Below are positions 50,428-56,656 of a DNA stretch of 64,000 nt, piece by piece. The DNA is from a virus. Lineage: Duplodnaviria > Caudoviricetes. Position 1 is the first letter of the stretch. The number at the start of each line of letters is the position of its first letter. Position numbers and translations under genes: made by a program. The notes beneath the pieces are model-generated. The model was given only the letters and a program-made list of their open reading frames with translations, ran no database searches and was not told where the DNA came from. Location of the stretch: IMG/VR virus record IMGVR_UViG_3300037247_001786, positions 224,001 through 288,000 of that record; one strand, 5' to 3'.

Positions 50428-50471
50428 TAAGTGATACAAAATCGCTTATAATTCTATACAGGAGACCTCAA

Positions 50472-51176
50472 ATGCGAAAGCTAAAAGTTACCCGATACAA
50501 ACAGAAACCAGGACATTGTGCGATTGCCGCTTGTGCGACAGTAGGGAATTCTCACAACCAAGGTATAGACTATGAACAATCTCAAGAAATAGCTAAAAAG
50601 AAAGTGGTGAAAAATATAGATGAAGGTTTGGATTCTGGCGAAATAGGAAGTCTTCTGAACCATTTAGGGTTTCAAAAAGTAACTGTAGTTACCACAAATT
50701 TACATATTTTTGACTATTCATGGAACAAATATAAAAAGAATCATCTTATTTCTACAATGAAAGAGATGGGGAAATTTTATAAAGGAGAATATCGAGAAGT
50801 TCTCAAATCCTTACGCAAATGGTTAGAATTGGAACAGTTCGATAATAACATAATCATAGATTATGATTTTAGCAAATATATAAGACAAACCTTAGATAAT
50901 AAGAACCCGCTTGTTTTATCATTTAATTGGACAATGTATTTTAAATATACCAAACAAGGAGAAACTAAGCTTGACTCGATTAAAGGAGAAATGGAAGAAC
51001 ACGCTGTTGTTGCTTACGGGTATAGTAAGAAAGGGGTATATATTTGCGACAGTCACCATGAATGCTATAAATATAAATTGAAAAGATATAGAAGTGGACT
51101 TTACGTTATTCCTTGGGAGCATCTTATGACGATAATGGGTTTGGGGGATTTATACATACCAGAATGCTATGAATAA
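50472..51176 (+). CDS. Peptidase C39-like cysteine protease
   Basis: YKQKPGHCAIAA (Q..C), EHAVVAYGY (H), ICDS (D); RBS AGGAG before ATG 50472. Confidence 0.75.
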   Translation: MRKLKVTRYKQKPGHCAIAACATVGNSHNQGIDYEQSQEIAKKKVVKNIDEGLDSGEIGSLLNHLGFQKVTVVTTNLHIFDYSWNKYKKNHLISTMKEMGKFYKGEYREVLKSLRKWLELEQFDNNIIIDYDFSKYIRQTLDNKNPLVLSFNWTMYFKYTKQGETKLDSIKGEMEEHAVVAYGYSKKGVYICDSHHECYKYKLKRYRSGLYVIPWEHLMTIMGLGDLYIPECYE

Positions 51177-52335
51177 TAAAACAATAACAATTGATAAAAA
51201 ACTTTATGATAAATTAATTTCTAATGAAAAAGAAATTGAAAAAAGTTTACATCTTAACGAGACATTATTAGACGCTATTCCCCATCCTGCGATGCTTATT
51301 GATAAACATAGAATAGTTTTAGCGGCTAATGAAAAAGCTAGAGATATGGGAGCCCAAGTAGGAGGTCTTTGCTATGAAGGATTTTCTACATGTCGAGATA
51401 TCTGTAAAAGTCAAGGTAATTGCTGTTTCTGTAACAGAGAATTAGATATAGATCAGATGGACAGTAAGAATATAGAAATAGAAGCTTACGATAATGTTTG
51501 GGATACATGGTGGGTACCTGTTGATAAGAGTTCTTTTCTTCATTATTCTGTTGATATAACAAATATCCGTAGAGGTGAACAGATTTTAATCGAGTCGGCA
51601 AAAGAGTTAGAATCCAGCAATAAGGAGCTTGAGCAATTTGCATATATTGCTTCTCATGACTTACAAGAACCTCTTAGAGTTGTTTCTACCTATTGCCAAC
51701 TTATTGAAATACTAGCGGATAAGATTTATTTTCGATCTTTAAACAAACAAGAAAAAGAAGAACTTCATCAATATATAACATTTACTACAGACGCTACAAA
51801 TAGAATGCGTTTTTTAATAAAAGATTTATTAGAATTTTCGAGAGTGGGAATGTCTGATGATGATTATGAGATGATAGATATCAATGATGTAATTAAAAAT
51901 ACTATTAAAGATTTTGAGATAGCTATTCAGGATAATGATGCAATTATAGAACATGCATCGATGCCAACCATTATGGGTAAAAGAAGAAGAATAAGCCAAG
52001 TTTTTCATAATATCGTTAGCAATGCAATGAAATTTAAAAGTGATAGAGATGTAGTTATTTCCATTGGGGCAGAAGAGAGGAAAAACGACTGGCTATTTTC
52101 TATTTCAGATACTGGTATAGGTATCGTTGAAGATCAACAAGAGAGAGTCTTCGGTATTTTTAAGAGGCTTCATAGTAGGGAAGATTATCCCGGAACTGGT
52201 ATAGGGTTAGCTTTAGTTAAGAAGATAGTAGAAAATCATGGAGGAAAAGTGTGGATAGAATCGATTGTAGGAGAAGGCTCTACTTTCTATTTTACTATTC
52301 CTAAAAGTTGGGAAATGATAAAAACGATAAAATAA
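51169..52335 (+). CDS. Soluble PAS sensor histidine kinase (Cph1/bacteriophytochrome-type transmitter)
   Basis: EQFAYIASHDLQEPLR H-box, NIVSNAMKF N-box, DTGIGI, FKRLH, GTGIGLA, GEGSTFYF; Cys-rich PAS; no TM segment. Confidence 0.92.
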   Translation: MNNKTITIDKKLYDKLISNEKEIEKSLHLNETLLDAIPHPAMLIDKHRIVLAANEKARDMGAQVGGLCYEGFSTCRDICKSQGNCCFCNRELDIDQMDSKNIEIEAYDNVWDTWWVPVDKSSFLHYSVDITNIRRGEQILIESAKELESSNKELEQFAYIASHDLQEPLRVVSTYCQLIEILADKIYFRSLNKQEKEELHQYITFTTDATNRMRFLIKDLLEFSRVGMSDDDYEMIDINDVIKNTIKDFEIAIQDNDAIIEHASMPTIMGKRRRISQVFHNIVSNAMKFKSDRDVVISIGAEERKNDWLFSISDTGIGIVEDQQERVFGIFKRLHSREDYPGTGIGLALVKKIVENHGGKVWIESIVGEGSTFYFTIPKSWEMIKTIK

Positions 52336-52344
52336 TTATTTTGT

Positions 52345-52373
52345 TTGTAAAGTGATTTATTATTTAGTATATT
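52345..52373 (+). promoter_or_regulatory. sigma70-type promoter (AGTG class)
   Basis: TTGTAA-AGTGATTTATTATTTAG(17)-TATATT. Confidence 0.6.
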
Positions 52374-52412
52374 GATTAAAGTAATATTCGATTATATGTC
52401 GAGTATAAAGTG

Positions 52413-52465
52413 GGCAGTCGTAGAACTGCCAATAGAGAGGTAGCCGTAGATGCTACCATAGAGAG
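52413..52465 (+). promoter_or_regulatory. Two tandem leader hairpins with identical loop and tail
   Basis: GGCAGT-CGTAGA-ACTGCC-A-ATAGAGA and GGTAGC-CGTAGA-T-GCTACC-ATAGAGAG. Confidence 0.65.
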
Positions 52466-52496
52466 TAAAAGTTTAAAGTAAAAGGAGAGAATAACC

Positions 52497-53369
52497 ATGA
52501 GTTATGATCAAAAAATCGCGTCCGCACGGGCAACAATCAATTCTCACAACGAGAATATCGAAGCAGAAAATCAAATCAATTTCGACGAGTTCTTAAAATC
52601 ACTTCAAAAAGAAGGCGGGACTTCAGAAGCATCTTTATCTCAATGTAGTTGGGAGCTATTGCAGAAATTAAGTCTTCCTATTCTTATCGCTAAACAAGTT
52701 GGTAAGATATTTAGAGGTAAATCAGATGGAAAGAATAAAACAGTCTATGTATCTGAAAGAAAAGCTTCATGCATGACCCCAGTAGAGCTTCTTGAAAGAT
52801 ATATTCCTCAAGATATTGACAATGCTGTTGGAGAAAGACTTCAAAAAGTATCAAGAGGGCTACTTTGTATTGTCTTTAATGATGACGGTTCAGTTAATGT
52901 AGAAAAATCTGCTGAACTTATAAAAGACATACAAAATGATTTGCCGGAAATAGATAAGGTTTCAGTTGACGGTGTCCCAAAACAGGTTTTCCGAATTGGA
53001 GAAAGAACAGATAATTATGCTGATGAAAATCCAATTTATCCTGGTAGAGTATTGAGGTCAGGAGAGACTTGTGACCAAACTTTGCGTTCTTGGAAGGGAG
53101 TTGATATTACGATCAGACAGCTATTGCATTTGGCGGTAACAGAAACTGATGAGATTACTATTAGCTCTATTGAAGATGCTCATAATGTTTTAGACAAAGC
53201 TGTTGGTTCAAATGCTTTTAAGATAATTCAAAGTAGATATCCAGAATCTTCAATTCTTTGGCAGAAGCGTCTTAAAACAGGGAAACTTCCTATATTAAAA
53301 ATTGCATTAGGAACAAATAGTTCTAATAGTAAAAAGGATGATCCTTTCTACGCAAATAGAACTTACTAA
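52497..53369 (+). CDS. Hypothetical protein
   Basis: 290 aa, RBS AAGGAG. Confidence 0.65.
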   Translation: MSYDQKIASARATINSHNENIEAENQINFDEFLKSLQKEGGTSEASLSQCSWELLQKLSLPILIAKQVGKIFRGKSDGKNKTVYVSERKASCMTPVELLERYIPQDIDNAVGERLQKVSRGLLCIVFNDDGSVNVEKSAELIKDIQNDLPEIDKVSVDGVPKQVFRIGERTDNYADENPIYPGRVLRSGETCDQTLRSWKGVDITIRQLLHLAVTETDEITISSIEDAHNVLDKAVGSNAFKIIQSRYPESSILWQKRLKTGKLPILKIALGTNSSNSKKDDPFYANRTY

Positions 53370-53376
53370 TCTTTTA

Positions 53377-53400
53377 AGGGGCAGCGATGCCCCTATTTTT
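53377..53400 (+). terminator. Intra-operon terminator-like hairpin
   Basis: AGGGGCA-GCGA-TGCCCCT followed by ATTTTT. Confidence 0.6.
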
Positions 53401-53418
53401 AATATAGGAGAAAATCAA

Positions 53419-54672
53419 ATGAGTACAAAAATGAACGTAAAAGAATTTATTTGCACTTTGCATATGCCAAATAAATTAGAACAGATAATTGTAAATGGCG
53501 AAGAAAGACCACATTCTCTACCTCCAGGAAATGCAAGAGAAGCTCATCCTGTTGATTCTTACCCTGCTTGCCCAGACAGTTGGATGAATGGGTCAGATAT
53601 CGCAAGTAGTTATTTCGTAGGAGTAGAAGAAGATAAGGGTATGTGGATGGATTTTAACGATTGTCATTTTCTAGATAGGGATGTTGCTGTAGTAATTAGT
53701 GTTCAGGGAATTAACCCTATTACTGGTCAAAAGACAGATACTTTAAGATTAGAGCAATATAAAGAAAAGTGTCCTATCCATGATGTTTCTTTTCAACAGG
53801 ATAATTATTGTCCTAAGTGTAAGTTTGACTGGCCAGATCAAAATTATTTAGCGACTACAGGAACTAATCATCCTTATTTCTGGTTAGATGGTTTCCGCAG
53901 ACCTGATGGAACTGTTAGACAATACATCTTTACTTCTGAAGAGTTAAAGGGGGTAGCTAGTCAGTTGATAGGAAAAGATAAAGTCTATGCTATAGGTATC
54001 GCTTTTTATTACAGTAAAGAGAAAAAACCTGTTAGACAGAAACCTATCTCCTCTAGATCAGTTTGTATGGATTTTGACAATGATTTTATTCATAAATATA
54101 CTCCGCATACTTATGGACCTACTTCTATTGATTGGGACTCTACGAATGTTCCAGATATGATAATAGGAGGAGATACTTCTTGGCAAACAGATTTAGATTT
54201 TCAATCTGAGACATTGTCTGGGAAGGGGGGGTTAACTTGTGGGAAGATATCAGCTCAAAACCATGAGCCTAAAATAGGATGCAATGCTTTTAAATCTCTT
54301 GGACCGACAACAAAAGAGGGAATATTTCTTCCTGACCAATCTTCTTCAAAGGCTGGGTTATGTTCGCCGAACCTTATAGGCAGAAAACCTGGGGGCGTTG
54401 TCAAAGCTAAAAAATCTAAAACTTATAAGGTAAATAGCATGTCTATACCTATTGAAAAGGTTAAGGCTGTTAAAAAACTTGAGGTTGGTGCAGGGGCTTT
54501 AATAAGTCAAAAAATTAATAGAGATCCTGAGAAGATGGAATATTGGGAAGAAGAGCCTGCTGGCATGATTTATATTAATTACTGCGATGTAGAAACTTCT
54601 TCGAAGATAGTTGAAGCTGGAAAGATAGAAAAGCAGTCTGAAGGCTTTATGAAAGATATAACTGTAGGTTAA
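53419..54672 (+). CDS. Conserved-looking protein of unknown function (LPPG..MW.DF..QNY..WLDG..VRQ family)
   Basis: RBS AGGAG at MSTKM; motif string recalled from an uncharacterised bacterial/fungal family; internal CPIH..CPKC ribbon. Confidence 0.5.
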   Translation: MSTKMNVKEFICTLHMPNKLEQIIVNGEERPHSLPPGNAREAHPVDSYPACPDSWMNGSDIASSYFVGVEEDKGMWMDFNDCHFLDRDVAVVISVQGINPITGQKTDTLRLEQYKEKCPIHDVSFQQDNYCPKCKFDWPDQNYLATTGTNHPYFWLDGFRRPDGTVRQYIFTSEELKGVASQLIGKDKVYAIGIAFYYSKEKKPVRQKPISSRSVCMDFDNDFIHKYTPHTYGPTSIDWDSTNVPDMIIGGDTSWQTDLDFQSETLSGKGGLTCGKISAQNHEPKIGCNAFKSLGPTTKEGIFLPDQSSSKAGLCSPNLIGRKPGGVVKAKKSKTYKVNSMSIPIEKVKAVKKLEVGAGALISQKINRDPEKMEYWEEEPAGMIYINYCDVETSSKIVEAGKIEKQSEGFMKDITVG

Positions 54673-54677
54673 ATTTT

Positions 54678-54713
54678 ATAAAAGAGGATCTATTAACGTA
54701 GGTTCTCTTTTAT
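54678..54713. terminator. Bidirectional terminator between convergent genes
   Basis: ATAAAAGAGGATCTA-TTAACG-TAGGTTCTCTTTTAT followed by T tract. Confidence 0.8.
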
Positions 54714-55123
54714 TTTTTTCTTTTTTTGAAGTTTAACGAATAAGTAGCATAATTGATTGATCTGGAAAGTTCTTTTTTATTTTCGATTACTTCTCCTTTA
54801 ATTAAGAAATCTCTTATTCCGTGTTTAAAGGCTTCCGTTCCAATAATATGATCTTCTAATCCAGTTAATATAATTATGGGTGTTTTTATTTTATTGTTTT
54901 TAAGTTCTTCTGTCATTAAGGTTATTGTTTGAATACCTTCACTTTCTGGCAATCCTAAATCTAATAAAATAAGATCAAATTCTTTTTCTTTTAATTTCTG
55001 GAAAGCTTTAGATAAGCTACCGCACTCTTCTATTTGCAAATTTTCAAATAAATCATATTCTTCAATATATTTTTTATAAATTTTTCTATCTGCTGGGTTG
55101 TCGTCAATAATTAATATCTTCAT
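54710..55123 (-). CDS. Stand-alone response regulator (REC only)
   Basis: ILIIDD, ILLDLGLP phospho-Asp, LTG, LIKG. Confidence 0.9.
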   Translation of the reverse strand: MKILIIDDNPADRKIYKKYIEEYDLFENLQIEECGSLSKAFQKLKEKEFDLILLDLGLPESEGIQTITLMTEELKNNKIKTPIIILTGLEDHIIGTEAFKHGIRDFLIKGEVIENKKELSRSINYATYSLNFKKRKK

Positions 55124-55145
55124 TTTTTTCCTCTCTGATTCTACA

Positions 55146-55583
55146 TTATTTTATATTTGGCATTTTTGTTGATTTTATCCAAAAGTCGCTGAAAACTTTT
55201 ATTTTCTCGAATAATTCTTCTACATCAAATGTTTTTGTGATATAGGAATTGGCATATAATGAATATGAGGTATTAATATCACCAATATCATCTGATGTAC
55301 TATATATTATTATCGGAATAAGTTTGTATGTTTCATCTGTCTTCAAGCACTCTAAAACTTCAAATCCATTTTTTACTGGAAGATTAAGATCTAGAACTAT
55401 TATATTAGGTGTTTTAACATCGTTGAAGTCGCCCTGTTTGAAGATATAATCTATTCCTTCTTGTCCATCTTTGACATGGAATATCTCCATGTTTTCGATA
55501 TTGGCATTATCAAGTGCTTTTTTAAGAAGTACAAAATCAGGTTTACTGTCTTCTATTACTAGAATTTTAAAAGTGTTATTCAT
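55146..55583 (-). CDS. Rcp1-like single-domain response regulator
   Basis: ILVIEDS, LDLNLP..NGFEVL, IPIII.STS, ANSYITK; start at MNNTF (55583). Confidence 0.9.
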   Translation of the reverse strand: MNNTFKILVIEDSKPDFVLLKKALDNANIENMEIFHVKDGQEGIDYIFKQGDFNDVKTPNIIVLDLNLPVKNGFEVLECLKTDETYKLIPIIIYSTSDDIGDINTSYSLYANSYITKTFDVEELFEKIKVFSDFWIKSTKMPNIK

Positions 55584-55654
55584 GAGGGAACCTTTATTTA
55601 AAAAATAATTCATATTATTATCTTCTGTAATACACTAAGATATCTTCTATTTTT

Positions 55655-55683
55655 TTGTAAAGTGAAATGTTATAATATACAAT
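55655..55683 (+). promoter_or_regulatory. sigma70-type promoter (AGTGAAA class)
   Basis: TTGTAA-AGTGAAATGTTATAATA(17)-TACAAT. Confidence 0.7.
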
Positions 55684-55717: not shown

Positions 55718-56656
55718 ATGAGAGGAAATATACCAACGATTAATATATGCGGAAGAAGTTTACCTGAAGCATGGGAAAAAGCAGTAATAGCAGTTTGGGA
55801 TAAGGGTCTTGACATTAAAACGCAATATGACAAACCAGAAGATCCCCCAAGTAAAGATGCTACTGTTATGATTACAGTAGAAGACCCGTTTGCCGAACCA
55901 AGAATTCATAAGAATTTCCCAGGTGGACCAGAAGAACTCGAATCATATAATCAAGAAGTTCTAGACGGTATTCACAATCATTGGATTGATCCAGAGAACG
56001 GCAAATGGACATATACTTATAATGAGAGATTATATAAGTATACTCCCACAGAGGATTTGAATAATTCTAAATCTCCGAGACCTTTCGAGATTGTTGATCA
56101 AATTCAATATATTATTGACAATTTAGCTAATAGTAATTACAGTAGACGGGCACAGGGTATCACCTGGCAACCAACTTGTGACCCGAAGACATATGACCCC
56201 CCTTGCCTTCAAAGGATCTGGTGCCGTATGCCAGAGGATGAGGATGGGGTTCTCGTATTGAATATGAATTCTCATTGGAGAAGCAGAGATCTTTTTAGAG
56301 CGTGGTTTATGAATGTATACGCTATAACTAATCTTCAAAAAAGAATAGCAGATGCTATATCTGAAAAAATTGGAAGAGAAGTAAAAGTTGGAAGATATGT
56401 CGATATCAGTGATTCTCTTCATCTTTACGGTAGTTATCTTAATGATATCGAACCAGAGATAAAGAAGATGAAAGAAAAACCTATGTTTACTGAAAAATCT
56501 TCTAATAGATACACTGAAGATTATTTGCAAGAGATTAAAAAGAATATAGAACAGAGAACCTATCTAACAACTAGTCCAGCATTCGAAATAATGACAGAAG
56601 AGGCAAGAGAAAATCTTAAAAGGAACCCTGATTTTTATGCAAAGCCAAATGGATAA
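55718..56656 (+). CDS. thyA: Thymidylate synthase (ThyA fold, archaeal-like short type)
   Basis: YTYNERL, SRRAQGITW, PPCLQ catalytic Cys, WRSRD, MN, SDSLHLY. Confidence 0.85.
   Translation: MRGNIPTINICGRSLPEAWEKAVIAVWDKGLDIKTQYDKPEDPPSKDATVMITVEDPFAEPRIHKNFPGGPEELESYNQEVLDGIHNHWIDPENGKWTYTYNERLYKYTPTEDLNNSKSPRPFEIVDQIQYIIDNLANSNYSRRAQGITWQPTCDPKTYDPPCLQRIWCRMPEDEDGVLVLNMNSHWRSRDLFRAWFMNVYAITNLQKRIADAISEKIGREVKVGRYVDISDSLHLYGSYLNDIEPEIKKMKEKPMFTEKSSNRYTEDYLQEIKKNIEQRTYLTTSPAFEIMTEEARENLKRNPDFYAKPNG

What the first reader, a model, noticed from the sequence alone, without database searches (positions are those of the whole stretch)
50472..55583. Complete phage-borne two-component phosphorelay (PAS kinase + two REC-only regulators) bracketing a regulated operon
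The kinase has intact H, N, G1, F and G2 boxes, no TM segment, and a Cys-rich PAS (CY-x6-C-x3-C-x5-CC-x-C) that could bind Fe-S, heme or zinc. Both regulators keep the acidic pocket, phospho-Asp, S/T and Lys. In bacteria this Cph1-type kinase is usually followed by an Rcp1-like REC and then a REC-output protein. Here the second REC ends right at the signalling helix (RSINYA), so the output domain is gone, and the regulators are inverted with a two-gene operon inserted between. A lytic-looking jumbo phage with its own cytoplasmic sensor and no DNA-binding output may sense host redox or energy state and act by protein contact or by cross-talk into host signalling. This is the best candidate for an undescribed system in the window.
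Basis: partly seen in the sequence, partly recalled or inferred. Interest (0 to 1): 0.8.

Follow-up and report, generated by a model that had tools for sequence, protein, structure and literature searches.

The report
Huge-phage kinase with two bare receivers
A 461-kb uncultured phage and at least nine related huge phages carry their own, long-inherited bacterial-type signalling set (one sensor kinase and two small phospho-receiver proteins with no output domain). These viruses probably sense something during infection, but the signal and the target are unknown.

Summary
The window is part of a 460,978-bp virus genome with terminal repeats. It encodes one soluble PAS-HisKA-HATPase_c histidine kinase (51169-52335, +) and two stand-alone receivers on the opposite strand (54710-55123 and 55146-55583/55613). 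All catalytic motifs are intact.

The set is not decaying: dN/dS is 0.05-0.2. The same layout of one kinase and two REC-only proteins recurs in about ten related huge-phage genomes. Their kinase cores form one well-supported clade apart from cellular kinases. Their divergence tracks that of backbone genes, which fits a single old acquisition. Sensor domains were swapped between lineages, and one relative has a membrane sCache sensor.

- No Hpt protein exists in the genome, so this is a branched two-component system, not a phosphorelay.
- The two genes in between (X and Y) are an older, always-linked pair. They occur in 36 related loci without any kinase or receivers, so they were not inserted and nothing marks them as the regulated target.
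- Cofactor binding by the cysteine-rich PAS domain is untested.

I found no paper describing this. The scan has noted other phage-borne kinase/receiver cassettes on other DNA. Verdict: a new variant of a known kind, of moderate-to-high interest.

The parts
50429..50452 (+). Promoter-like motif (AAGTGA, 12 nt, TATAAT) in front of the peptidase-kinase pair
   Evidence: It belongs to a motif class found 14 times on the + strand, against 7.3 +/- 2.7 in shuffles. Function is inferred.
50472..51176 (+). C39_2-like cysteine peptidase (234 aa). Its stop overlaps the kinase start by 8 nt.
   Evidence: Pfam Peptidase_C39_2, E 4.6e-8. The same 8-nt overlap with the kinase occurs in L007 and L008. The gene is also present in relatives without a kinase (L014), so it is backbone rather than strictly part of the signalling set. 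dN/dS 0.10-0.14.
51169..52335 (+). Soluble sensor histidine kinase (388 aa): PAS-like sensor 1-145, DHp with H163, and catalytic ATP-binding domain
   Evidence: Pfam; PDB matches 8f71, HK853 and bacteriophytochrome kinases; motif invariance; no TM segment; the only HATPase_c in the genome; dN/dS 0.05-0.13.
51370..51432 (+). Cysteine cluster C68-x6-C75-x3-C79-x5-C85-C86-x-C88 inside the PAS-like domain
   Evidence: All six Cys are kept in the ten close phage relatives. C68, C86 and C88 are also kept in the bacterial homologues P0017 and P0028. The cofactor is unknown.
52344..52373 (+). Promoter-like motif upstream of X (TTTGTAAAGTGA, then TATATT). The same 12-mer recurs at 55654.
   Evidence: Variants of the motif are kept upstream of X and of the thymidylate synthase gene in relatives.
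52497..53369 (+). Gene X (290 aa), unknown function. It is a backbone gene of the phage clade and is not shown to belong to the signalling system.
   Evidence: No Pfam or PHROG match. 72 homologues. Model pLDDT 85. Only residues 4-78 resemble HhH/SAM-like domains, weakly (Z 6.6). Always next to Y.
53377..53394 (+). GC-rich hairpin plus T-run between X and Y (terminator-like)
   Evidence: Function is inferred.
53419..54672 (+). Gene Y (417 aa from the Met shared with relatives), unknown function. It has a beta-sandwich built from residues 1-205 and 354-400, with a disordered middle.
   Evidence: 479 homologues. Model pLDDT 76. No PDB match. Fold matches only uncharacterised viral and bacterial proteins.
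54678..54713 (.). 16-bp hairpin at the convergent junction of Y and REC-A (terminator-like for both directions)
54710..55123 (-). REC-A: stand-alone receiver (137 aa) with D7/D8, D55, T87 and K109
   Evidence: Pfam Response_reg, E 1.7e-19. Invariant residues in 24 sequences. Nearest solved relatives are the receiver of a dual-sensor kinase (6oap) and NtrC1. Nearest cellular relatives are N-terminal receivers of 500-1700-aa proteins.
55146..55583 (-). REC-B: Rcp1/RcpA-type stand-alone receiver (145 aa from the Met shared with relatives; the open frame runs to 55613) with E21/D22, D75, T106 and K127 in 155-aa numbering
   Evidence: Pfam. RcpA 1k68, E 4.6e-31 over the whole length; Rcp1, E 1.5e-26. 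Invariant residues.
55654..55683 (+). Promoter-like motif for the thymidylate synthase gene, in the divergent region shared with REC-B

Best explanation
This is a functional, phage-owned, branched two-component system that a subclade of huge phages has inherited vertically since one old acquisition.

Proposed mechanism:
1. The soluble kinase dimer reads an intracellular cue through its cysteine-rich PAS domain. The cue is most plausibly redox state, a metal or an Fe-S cluster.
2. It autophosphorylates on H163.
3. It passes the phosphoryl group to the aspartates of two single-domain receivers: the Rcp1-type REC-B, which is its cognate type, and REC-A.
4. Neither receiver, nor any other protein of the phage, carries a DNA-binding or enzymatic output. 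The output must therefore go through protein contact with a phage or host protein, as with CheY, DivK or Rcp1. Alternatively one receiver serves as a phosphate sink that sets the level of the other.

The transmitter and both receivers are conserved across lineages while the sensor domains are exchanged. This suggests a fixed output fed by inputs tuned to each phage's host or habitat.

Shown here: gene integrity, catalytic motifs, purifying selection, conserved 1:2 stoichiometry, monophyly of the kinases, absence of Hpt and of output domains.

Inferred: phosphotransfer itself, the cue, the target and the sink role.
For: - Domains and motifs are intact.
- dN/dS is 0.05-0.20 for kinase and receivers against two relatives at 61-73% identity. 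Where dS is saturated, pN/pS is 0.21-0.31.
- The same kinase(+) ... REC-A(-) REC-B(-) layout occurs in about ten phage genomes.
- Four related genomes each hold exactly one HisKA kinase and one adjacent pair of short receivers, and no receiver with an output domain. The same holds for this genome.
- All nine phage kinase cores fall in one clade of 25 rows (support 100/100, stem length 0.71), apart from 91 other kinases.
- Pairwise divergence of the kinase core and both receivers tracks that of backbone genes X and Y (Spearman rho 0.54-0.80; median identity about 50% for all five genes).
- The kinase core and REC-B match the two halves of one solved bacteriophytochrome/response-regulator entry, 8avv.
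- Sensors differ between lineages: Cys-PAS alone here; an extra PAS in the 505-aa relatives; PAS_9; multi-PAS; and TM + sCache_2 + PAS_4 in one relative.
- PAS fold is supported at TM 0.66-0.76.
Against:
- The host is unknown.
- Conserved gene order within one clade is a single evolutionary event, so it does not independently prove that the three proteins work together.
- The kinase and receiver genes are not adjacent and lie on opposite strands.
- The H-box reads H-D-L-Q-E, not the H-E/D-x-x-T/N pattern that I recall as linked to phosphatase activity. The sink idea rests on that recollection alone.
- The Cys cluster has no counterpart in any solved PAS domain, so the cue is a guess.
Confidence: 0.6

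Rival explanations
1. The module works mainly on the host's signalling network rather than as a closed phage circuit. In this reading the phage kinase phosphorylates host response regulators that do have DNA-binding or enzymatic outputs. The two bare receivers, or one of them, drain phosphate from host kinases. That could silence a stress response or a two-component-based defence of the Detocs type.
For: The phage has no output domain of its own. In Detocs a stand-alone receiver is proposed to act as a phosphate buffer (bioRxiv 10.1101/2023.01.24.525353, read). REC-A gives weak hits to receivers of a candidate defence system in PADLOC (PDC-M60B/C, E 1e-9). One relative outside the subclade has a lone receiver without a kinase.
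Against: Kinase and both receivers are always kept together at a fixed 1:2 ratio and diverge in step. That is what a matched kinase-receiver set would show, and less so decoys aimed at varied hosts. REC-B is of the type cognate to this kinase class. No host is known, so no host partner can be named.
Confidence: 0.2
2. One reading: the two genes between kinase and receivers (X and Y) are the regulated operon or the direct protein targets of the phosphorylated receivers.
For: In every genome that has the signalling genes they flank X-Y in the same way. X has a long leader with hairpins and a terminator-like hairpin after it. X residues 4-78 weakly resemble HhH DNA-binding modules (Z 6.6).
Against: X-Y is adjacent in all 48 locus entries, and 36 of them have no kinase or receiver nearby. 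Five near-complete X-Y genomes have no HisKA kinase anywhere, and three have no receiver at all. The promoter-like motif before X is the phage's common one, also found before the peptidase, the thymidylate synthase and other genes. No receiver has a DNA-binding domain that could regulate a promoter.
Confidence: 0.1
3. The genes are passengers recently captured from a bacterium. They are decaying or have no role in infection.
For: Kinase and receiver families are typical bacterial ones. PHROGs already lists scattered phage kinases and receivers of unknown function.
Against: dN/dS is 0.05-0.2 with all catalytic residues kept. The phage kinases are monophyletic on a long stem. They co-diverge with backbone genes down to about 45-50% identity. 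No close bacterial donor exists: the best named cellular hit is 39% identical over the full length.
Confidence: 0.03

Closest known systems
Cph1/Rcp1 and bacteriophytochrome/response-regulator pairs (for example PDB 8avv, RcpA 1k68, Rcp1 1i3c)
   Same: The HisKA/HATPase_c transmitter is of the same subtype (E about 1e-28 to bacteriophytochrome kinases). It is paired with a stand-alone Rcp-type receiver (E 5e-31). The output of the Rcp-type receiver is by protein contact and is poorly understood in bacteria too (own knowledge).
   Different: There is no GAF/PHY photosensory module, so this is not a phytochrome. The sensor is a cysteine-rich PAS domain. The kinase and receiver genes are not adjacent. 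There is a second, unrelated stand-alone receiver. The system is encoded by a virus and forms a virus-specific clade.
Branched one-kinase/two-receiver systems with a phosphate sink (CheA with CheY1/CheY2 in Sinorhizobium; LovK/PhyK with LovR) (own knowledge)
   Same: One kinase and two single-domain receivers with no output domain. One receiver could act as a sink.
   Different: No chemotaxis or general-stress components are present. The sink role here is only inferred.
Detocs (DtcA kinase, DtcB buffer receiver, DtcC receiver-effector; bioRxiv 10.1101/2023.01.24.525353)
   Same: A kinase plus a stand-alone receiver proposed to buffer phosphate, in the setting of phage-host conflict.
   Different: No receiver-effector protein is present. 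No PADLOC match was found for the kinase. The system lies on the phage side, not the host side.
Other phage-borne kinase/receiver cassettes noted by this scan on other DNA (e1-5357790, e1-5375828, e1-3280471, e1-5341058)
   Same: Uncultured large phages carry a histidine kinase with stand-alone receivers, conserved among related phages. Per those notes, none is described in the literature.
   Different: Those are different genomes, gene orders and sensor types (LOV, envelope-linked, lysis-cassette-linked). I did not test relatedness to this clade.
NreB-type Fe-S PAS oxygen sensor kinases (own knowledge)
   Same: A cytoplasmic kinase whose PAS domain carries a cluster of cysteines.
   Different: The Cys spacing differs from what I recall for NreB. 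No sequence match was found to any solved PAS domain. The cofactor is unknown.

Membership tests
HisKA-class sensor histidine kinase (Pfam PF00512 + PF02518) | DHp domain with a phospho-acceptor His in an H-box | tested here: met
   HisKA, E 1.8e-9, above cut-off. H163 in S-H-D-L-Q-E-P-L-R is invariant in 14 homologues.
HisKA-class sensor histidine kinase (Pfam PF00512 + PF02518) | Catalytic ATP-binding domain with N, G1, F and G2 boxes | tested here: met
   HATPase_c, 95.9 bits. N281/N285, D314/G318, F328 and G342/G344/G346 are invariant. Aligns over 235 residues to 8f71 and HK853.
HisKA-class sensor histidine kinase (Pfam PF00512 + PF02518) | Autophosphorylation and phosphotransfer activity | not testable with these tools
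   Needs biochemistry.
Phytochrome-type kinase (Cph1/BphP) | PAS-GAF-PHY photosensory module with a bilin-binding Cys | tested here: not met
   No GAF or PHY domain was found by Pfam in this 388-aa protein. Only the transmitter resembles BphP kinases. It works like the transmitter half but is not a phytochrome.
Rcp1/RcpA-type single-domain response regulator (REC-B) | Full-length similarity including the C-terminal extension, with no output domain | tested here: met
   1k68, E 4.6e-31, residues 16-152 against 4-139 of 140; 1i3c, E 1.5e-26.
Rcp1/RcpA-type single-domain response regulator (REC-B) | Acidic pocket, phospho-Asp, Thr/Ser and Lys | tested here: met
   E21/D22, D75, T106 and K127 are invariant in seven orthologues.
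Rcp1/RcpA-type single-domain response regulator (REC-B) | Gene adjacent to its cognate kinase | tested here: not met
   It is separated from the kinase by X, Y and REC-A and lies on the other strand, here and in all relatives.
Multi-step phosphorelay (His-Asp-His-Asp) | An Hpt or Spo0B-like phosphotransfer protein | tested here: not met
   No Hpt (PF01627) match in the complete genome at E <= 0.1, while the control genomes ring. A Spo0B-like protein was not searched for.
Multi-step phosphorelay (His-Asp-His-Asp) | Hybrid kinase carrying its own receiver | tested here: not met
   The kinase ends after HATPase_c at residue about 380 of 388.
Classical response regulator transcription factor | Receiver fused to a DNA-binding output | tested here: not met
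   There are only four REC-like frames in the genome. Two are these short proteins. The other two are Zn-ribbon plus cREC-like proteins. The same pattern holds in four relatives.
Detocs defence system | Receiver fused to a PNP or other effector domain | tested here: not met
   Both receivers are bare. There is no PADLOC hit for the kinase and only a weak PDC-M60 receiver hit for REC-A.
Fe-S or metal-binding PAS sensor (NreB-like) | Cofactor-ligating Cys set within a PAS fold | tested here: inconclusive
   PAS fold is supported (TM 0.66-0.76). Six Cys are conserved in close relatives and three in bacterial homologues. There is no match to any solved PAS domain. Cofactor identity needs spectroscopy.

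The most novel reading that the evidence does not exclude
A lineage of huge phages runs a virus-autonomous sensory pathway. Its output stage (one transmitter and two receiver-only proteins) is conserved, and its sensor modules are interchangeable. Here the sensor is an intracellular cysteine-rich PAS domain. In a relative it is a membrane-inserted extracytoplasmic sCache domain. The virus could thus read the state of the infected cell, or even of its surroundings, and adjust its long infection programme by protein contact with phage or host machinery.
Probability: 0.4. Interest if true: 0.8.

Novelty: new variant of a known kind. Interest (0 to 1): 0.6.

Why it matters
Known cases of phages that 'listen' (arbitrium, quorum-sensing receptors on phages) use one-component receptors (own knowledge). 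A complete kinase-to-receiver pathway has been kept for a long time by a clade of 220-550-kb phages. Its sensors have been exchanged between lineages and it has no transcription-factor output.

This would show that very large viruses carry their own signal-processing layer. The kinase is soluble and the receivers are small, so autophosphorylation, phosphotransfer specificity, cofactor content and binding partners can all be tested without culturing the phage. It also offers a natural set of matched kinase/receiver pairs with swapped sensors for studying how inputs are rewired.

Tried and rejected
- GenBank phages: blastn of the region and tblastn of Y found nothing. tblastn of REC-B found only about 30%-identical receivers in unannotated records.
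- The search for related loci with single proteins found almost nothing. The alignment-based scan worked.
- Function of X and Y:
  - Pfam, PHROGs, NCBIfam and PADLOC gave nothing.
  - Profile search of PDB sequences gave nothing.
  - Foldseek against PDB gave nothing at E <= 0.001.
  - The VIA-align wide search gave only Z <= 4.7 for Y, and Z 6.6 for the first 78 residues of X.
  - BFVD and the Atlas gave only uncharacterised proteins.
- Complex prediction with X + Y + REC-A as partner: no answer (score 0.00). This is not evidence either way.
- Bacterial context of the Cys-PAS homologue P0017 shows no adjacent Rcp-type receiver.
- The exact 12-mer TTTGTAAAGTGA occurs twice. That is not significant by the shuffle test with one mismatch allowed: 24 of 100 shuffles reach two matches. 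Only the generalised motif is enriched.
- Pseudogenisation is rejected.
- Six searches and one full-text check found no paper on huge-phage two-component systems. The jumbo-phage survey PMC7824862 discusses only the non-kinase cREC domain.
Full report
**What is there.** The window is bases 224,001-288,000 of a 460,978-bp virus record with direct terminal repeats, estimated complete. Almost all genes are on the + strand. They include a clamp loader, sliding clamp, CCA-adding enzyme, RNA ligase and polynucleotide kinase. No tyrosine integrase was found.

Between 50.4 and 55.7 kb lie six genes:
- a C39_2-like cysteine peptidase (50472-51176, +);
- a histidine kinase (51169-52335, +), whose start overlaps the peptidase stop by 8 nt;
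- two genes without any family match, called X (52497-53369) and Y (53419-54672) here;
- on the minus strand, two receiver-only proteins: REC-A (54710-55123) and REC-B (55146-55583, with the open frame running to 55613).

A ThyA-like gene follows on the + strand.

- Pfam finds HisKA and HATPase_c in the kinase and Response_reg in both small proteins, all above cut-off.
- The H, N, G1, F and G2 residues are invariant in an alignment with 13 homologues.
- No hydrophobic segment long enough for a membrane helix exists.
- The cysteine pattern C-x6-C-x3-C-x5-CC-x-C sits at residues 68-88. It is kept in all close relatives. Three of the six cysteines are also kept in bacterial homologues.
- Pfam hardly recognises residues 1-145 as PAS (E 0.1). 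The Atlas model of this very protein superposes on PAS domains of many kinases at TM 0.66-0.76. I accept a PAS fold.
- Both receivers keep the acidic pair, the phospho-aspartate, the threonine and the lysine in all seven orthologues compared. REC-A keeps them in 24 sequences.

**It is a phage lineage trait, not a stray gene.**
- A search of 5.8 billion proteins found twelve kinases 65-73% identical over the full length.
- The contigs that encode three of them show the same six genes in the same order and orientation.
- More distant contigs share about 45-50% identity in X and Y. They include records of 548 kb, 351 kb, 298 kb and 219 kb. All keep X, Y, REC-A(-) and REC-B(-) tightly packed, with a PAS kinase zero to five genes upstream on the + strand.
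- Against two relatives, dN/dS is 0.05-0.20 for all six genes. Where dS is saturated, pN/pS is 0.21-0.32.
- In a maximum-likelihood tree of 116 kinase cores, the nine kinases from known phage loci lie in one clade of 25 rows (support 100/100, stem 0.71), apart from 91 other kinases. Several of the unlabelled rows in that clade come from contigs that also carry Y.
- Pairwise identities of the kinase core, REC-A and REC-B rise and fall with those of X and Y (Spearman rho 0.54-0.80; medians near 50% for all five).

Together this points to one old acquisition followed by vertical descent.

**Stoichiometry and outputs.**
- This genome has a single HATPase_c kinase and four receiver-like frames.
- Two of the four are REC-A and REC-B. 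The others are a Zn-ribbon protein with a sub-threshold receiver match, and a Zn-ribbon plus cREC protein beside a NADAR gene. The cREC type is the non-kinase kind described for jumbo phages in PMC7824862.
- Four related records each hold exactly one HisKA kinase and one adjacent pair of 137-160-aa receiver frames, plus one weak cREC-like frame.
- No Hpt domain exists in the genome.

The system is therefore one kinase with two bare receivers. It is not a His-Asp-His-Asp relay, and it has no transcription-factor output in any of five genomes.

**Family assignments.**
- The transmitter is closest to 8f71, HK853 and bacteriophytochrome kinases.
- REC-B is a clear Rcp1/RcpA-type regulator over its whole length (E 5e-31).
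- Kinase and REC-B match the two parts of the same solved bacteriophytochrome/regulator entry, 8avv. REC-B is therefore the likely cognate partner.
- The kinase has no GAF or PHY module and is not a phytochrome.
- REC-A is only about 28% identical to REC-B. Its nearest solved relatives are the N-terminal receiver of a dual-sensor kinase (6oap) and NtrC1.
- In a library of 1.8 billion representatives, REC-A's closest non-stand-alone relatives are N-terminal receivers of 500-1700-aa multi-receiver proteins (35-39% identity). At least 17 clusters of 126-147-aa stand-alone proteins, at 40-67% identity, form its own family.

Descent of REC-A from a receiver-output protein is plausible, but the bare state is old and stable.

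**Sensors are swapped.**
- The window's kinase and one relative have the Cys-PAS alone.
- The 505-aa relatives add a second PAS in front, and one adds a third.
- More distant phage kinases carry ordinary PAS_9 or PAS_4 domains, several PAS domains, or an N-terminal membrane helix with sCache_2 followed by PAS_4.

A conserved output stage with changing inputs is the most informative feature for function.

**The genes in between.**
- X and Y are adjacent in all 48 locus entries examined. 36 of these have no kinase or receiver within 9 kb.
- Five near-complete genomes of that kind have no HisKA at all. Three have no receiver.
- X-Y is therefore an older backbone pair, and the signalling genes were added on either side of it.
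- X, the peptidase-kinase pair, the thymidylate synthase gene and several other genes share a promoter-like motif: AAGTGA, 11-16 nt, TAnnnT. It occurs 14 times on the + strand against 7.3 +/- 2.7 in shuffles. The receivers lack it.
- Terminator-like hairpins follow X and sit at the Y/REC-A junction.

Nothing singles out X-Y as the regulated target. A complex prediction of X, Y and REC-A gave no answer.

**Mechanism proposed.** See Best explanation. Integrity, selection, stoichiometry, monophyly and lack of outputs are shown. Phosphotransfer, the cue, the target and a sink role for one receiver are inferred.

**Novelty.** Six searches of 8.4 million full texts found no description of such a system in huge phages, and the huge-phage survey (Nature 2020) does not mention kinases or regulators. 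PHROGs lists scattered phage kinases and receivers of unknown function. This scan has noted other phage-borne kinase/receiver cassettes on other DNA. The parts are ordinary. The new elements are a long-lived virus-specific lineage, bare receivers as the only outputs, and sensor swapping. I rate it a new variant of a known kind.

Noticed in passing
window 52497-54672; loci L007-L015 and L024-L061: X (about 290 aa) and Y (about 360-500 aa) are an invariably adjacent gene pair in all 48 related huge-phage locus entries. Neither has a family, a solved-structure match or a known function. Y has invariant Cys, Trp, and Asp-Gly-Phe-Arg positions, and a beta-sandwich completed by its C-terminal 60 residues across a disordered linker.
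   Followed up: partly
window 52336-52496 and the equivalent leaders in L007-L015: The 5' leader of X carries two hairpins here. In nearly all relatives, including those without the kinase, runs of TTTAGAG/TAGAGT-like repeats lie directly before a strong AAGGAG ribosome-binding site. This could be a conserved translational or RNA-binding element.
   Followed up: partly
window, + strand: 24061, 25473, 31383, 33216, 38086, 50429, 52350, 55660, 62478: A promoter-like motif (often GAAAAGTGAAA, then 11-16 nt, then TAnnnT) lies just upstream of many + strand genes. It is about twice as frequent as in shuffles. It is probably the phage's own main promoter class.
   Followed up: partly
L004:692-1842 (genome about 219.8-220.9 kb) and L003:1228-1884 (genome about 443.7-444.3 kb): A NADAR gene is followed by a Zn-ribbon plus cREC protein (PF20274, 44 bits). 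Elsewhere there is a second Zn-ribbon protein with a weak receiver match. These fit the kinase-independent cREC systems of jumbo phages (PMC7824862) and are unrelated to the kinase cassette.
   Followed up: partly
window 55718-56656 versus L008:5267-5902, L009:9296-10192, L011:9234-10100: The gene after REC-B is a ThyA-type thymidylate synthase here and in L007 and L012. In L008, L009 and L011 a ThyX (Thy1) gene sits at the same position. This is non-orthologous displacement at a fixed locus.
   Followed up: no
L012:3168-5252 (= L026): The orthologous kinase of a 351-kb relative has an N-terminal membrane helix and an sCache_2 domain. It is a phage-encoded kinase predicted to sense outside the cytoplasm.
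   Followed up: partly
L009:5411-6019, L012:5419-6036; protein P0238: A VWA-domain gene sits directly before X in two relatives. A Y homologue is fused to VWA_CoxE. Atlas proteins with a Y-like fold are fused to VWA, ubiquitin-like or PDZ domains. This hints that Y belongs to a wider family of unknown function.
   Followed up: no
model of window 53419-54672: In BFVD the Y model matches uncharacterised proteins of giant eukaryotic viruses and of baculo-, asco- and iridoviruses at Foldseek E 4e-7 to 8e-4, but with low TM scores.
   Followed up: no
window 51169-51176: The peptidase stop and the kinase start overlap by 8 nt here and in L007 and L008. This suggests translational coupling in this sublineage. 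In other relatives the peptidase lies kilobases away from the kinase or occurs without it.
   Followed up: partly
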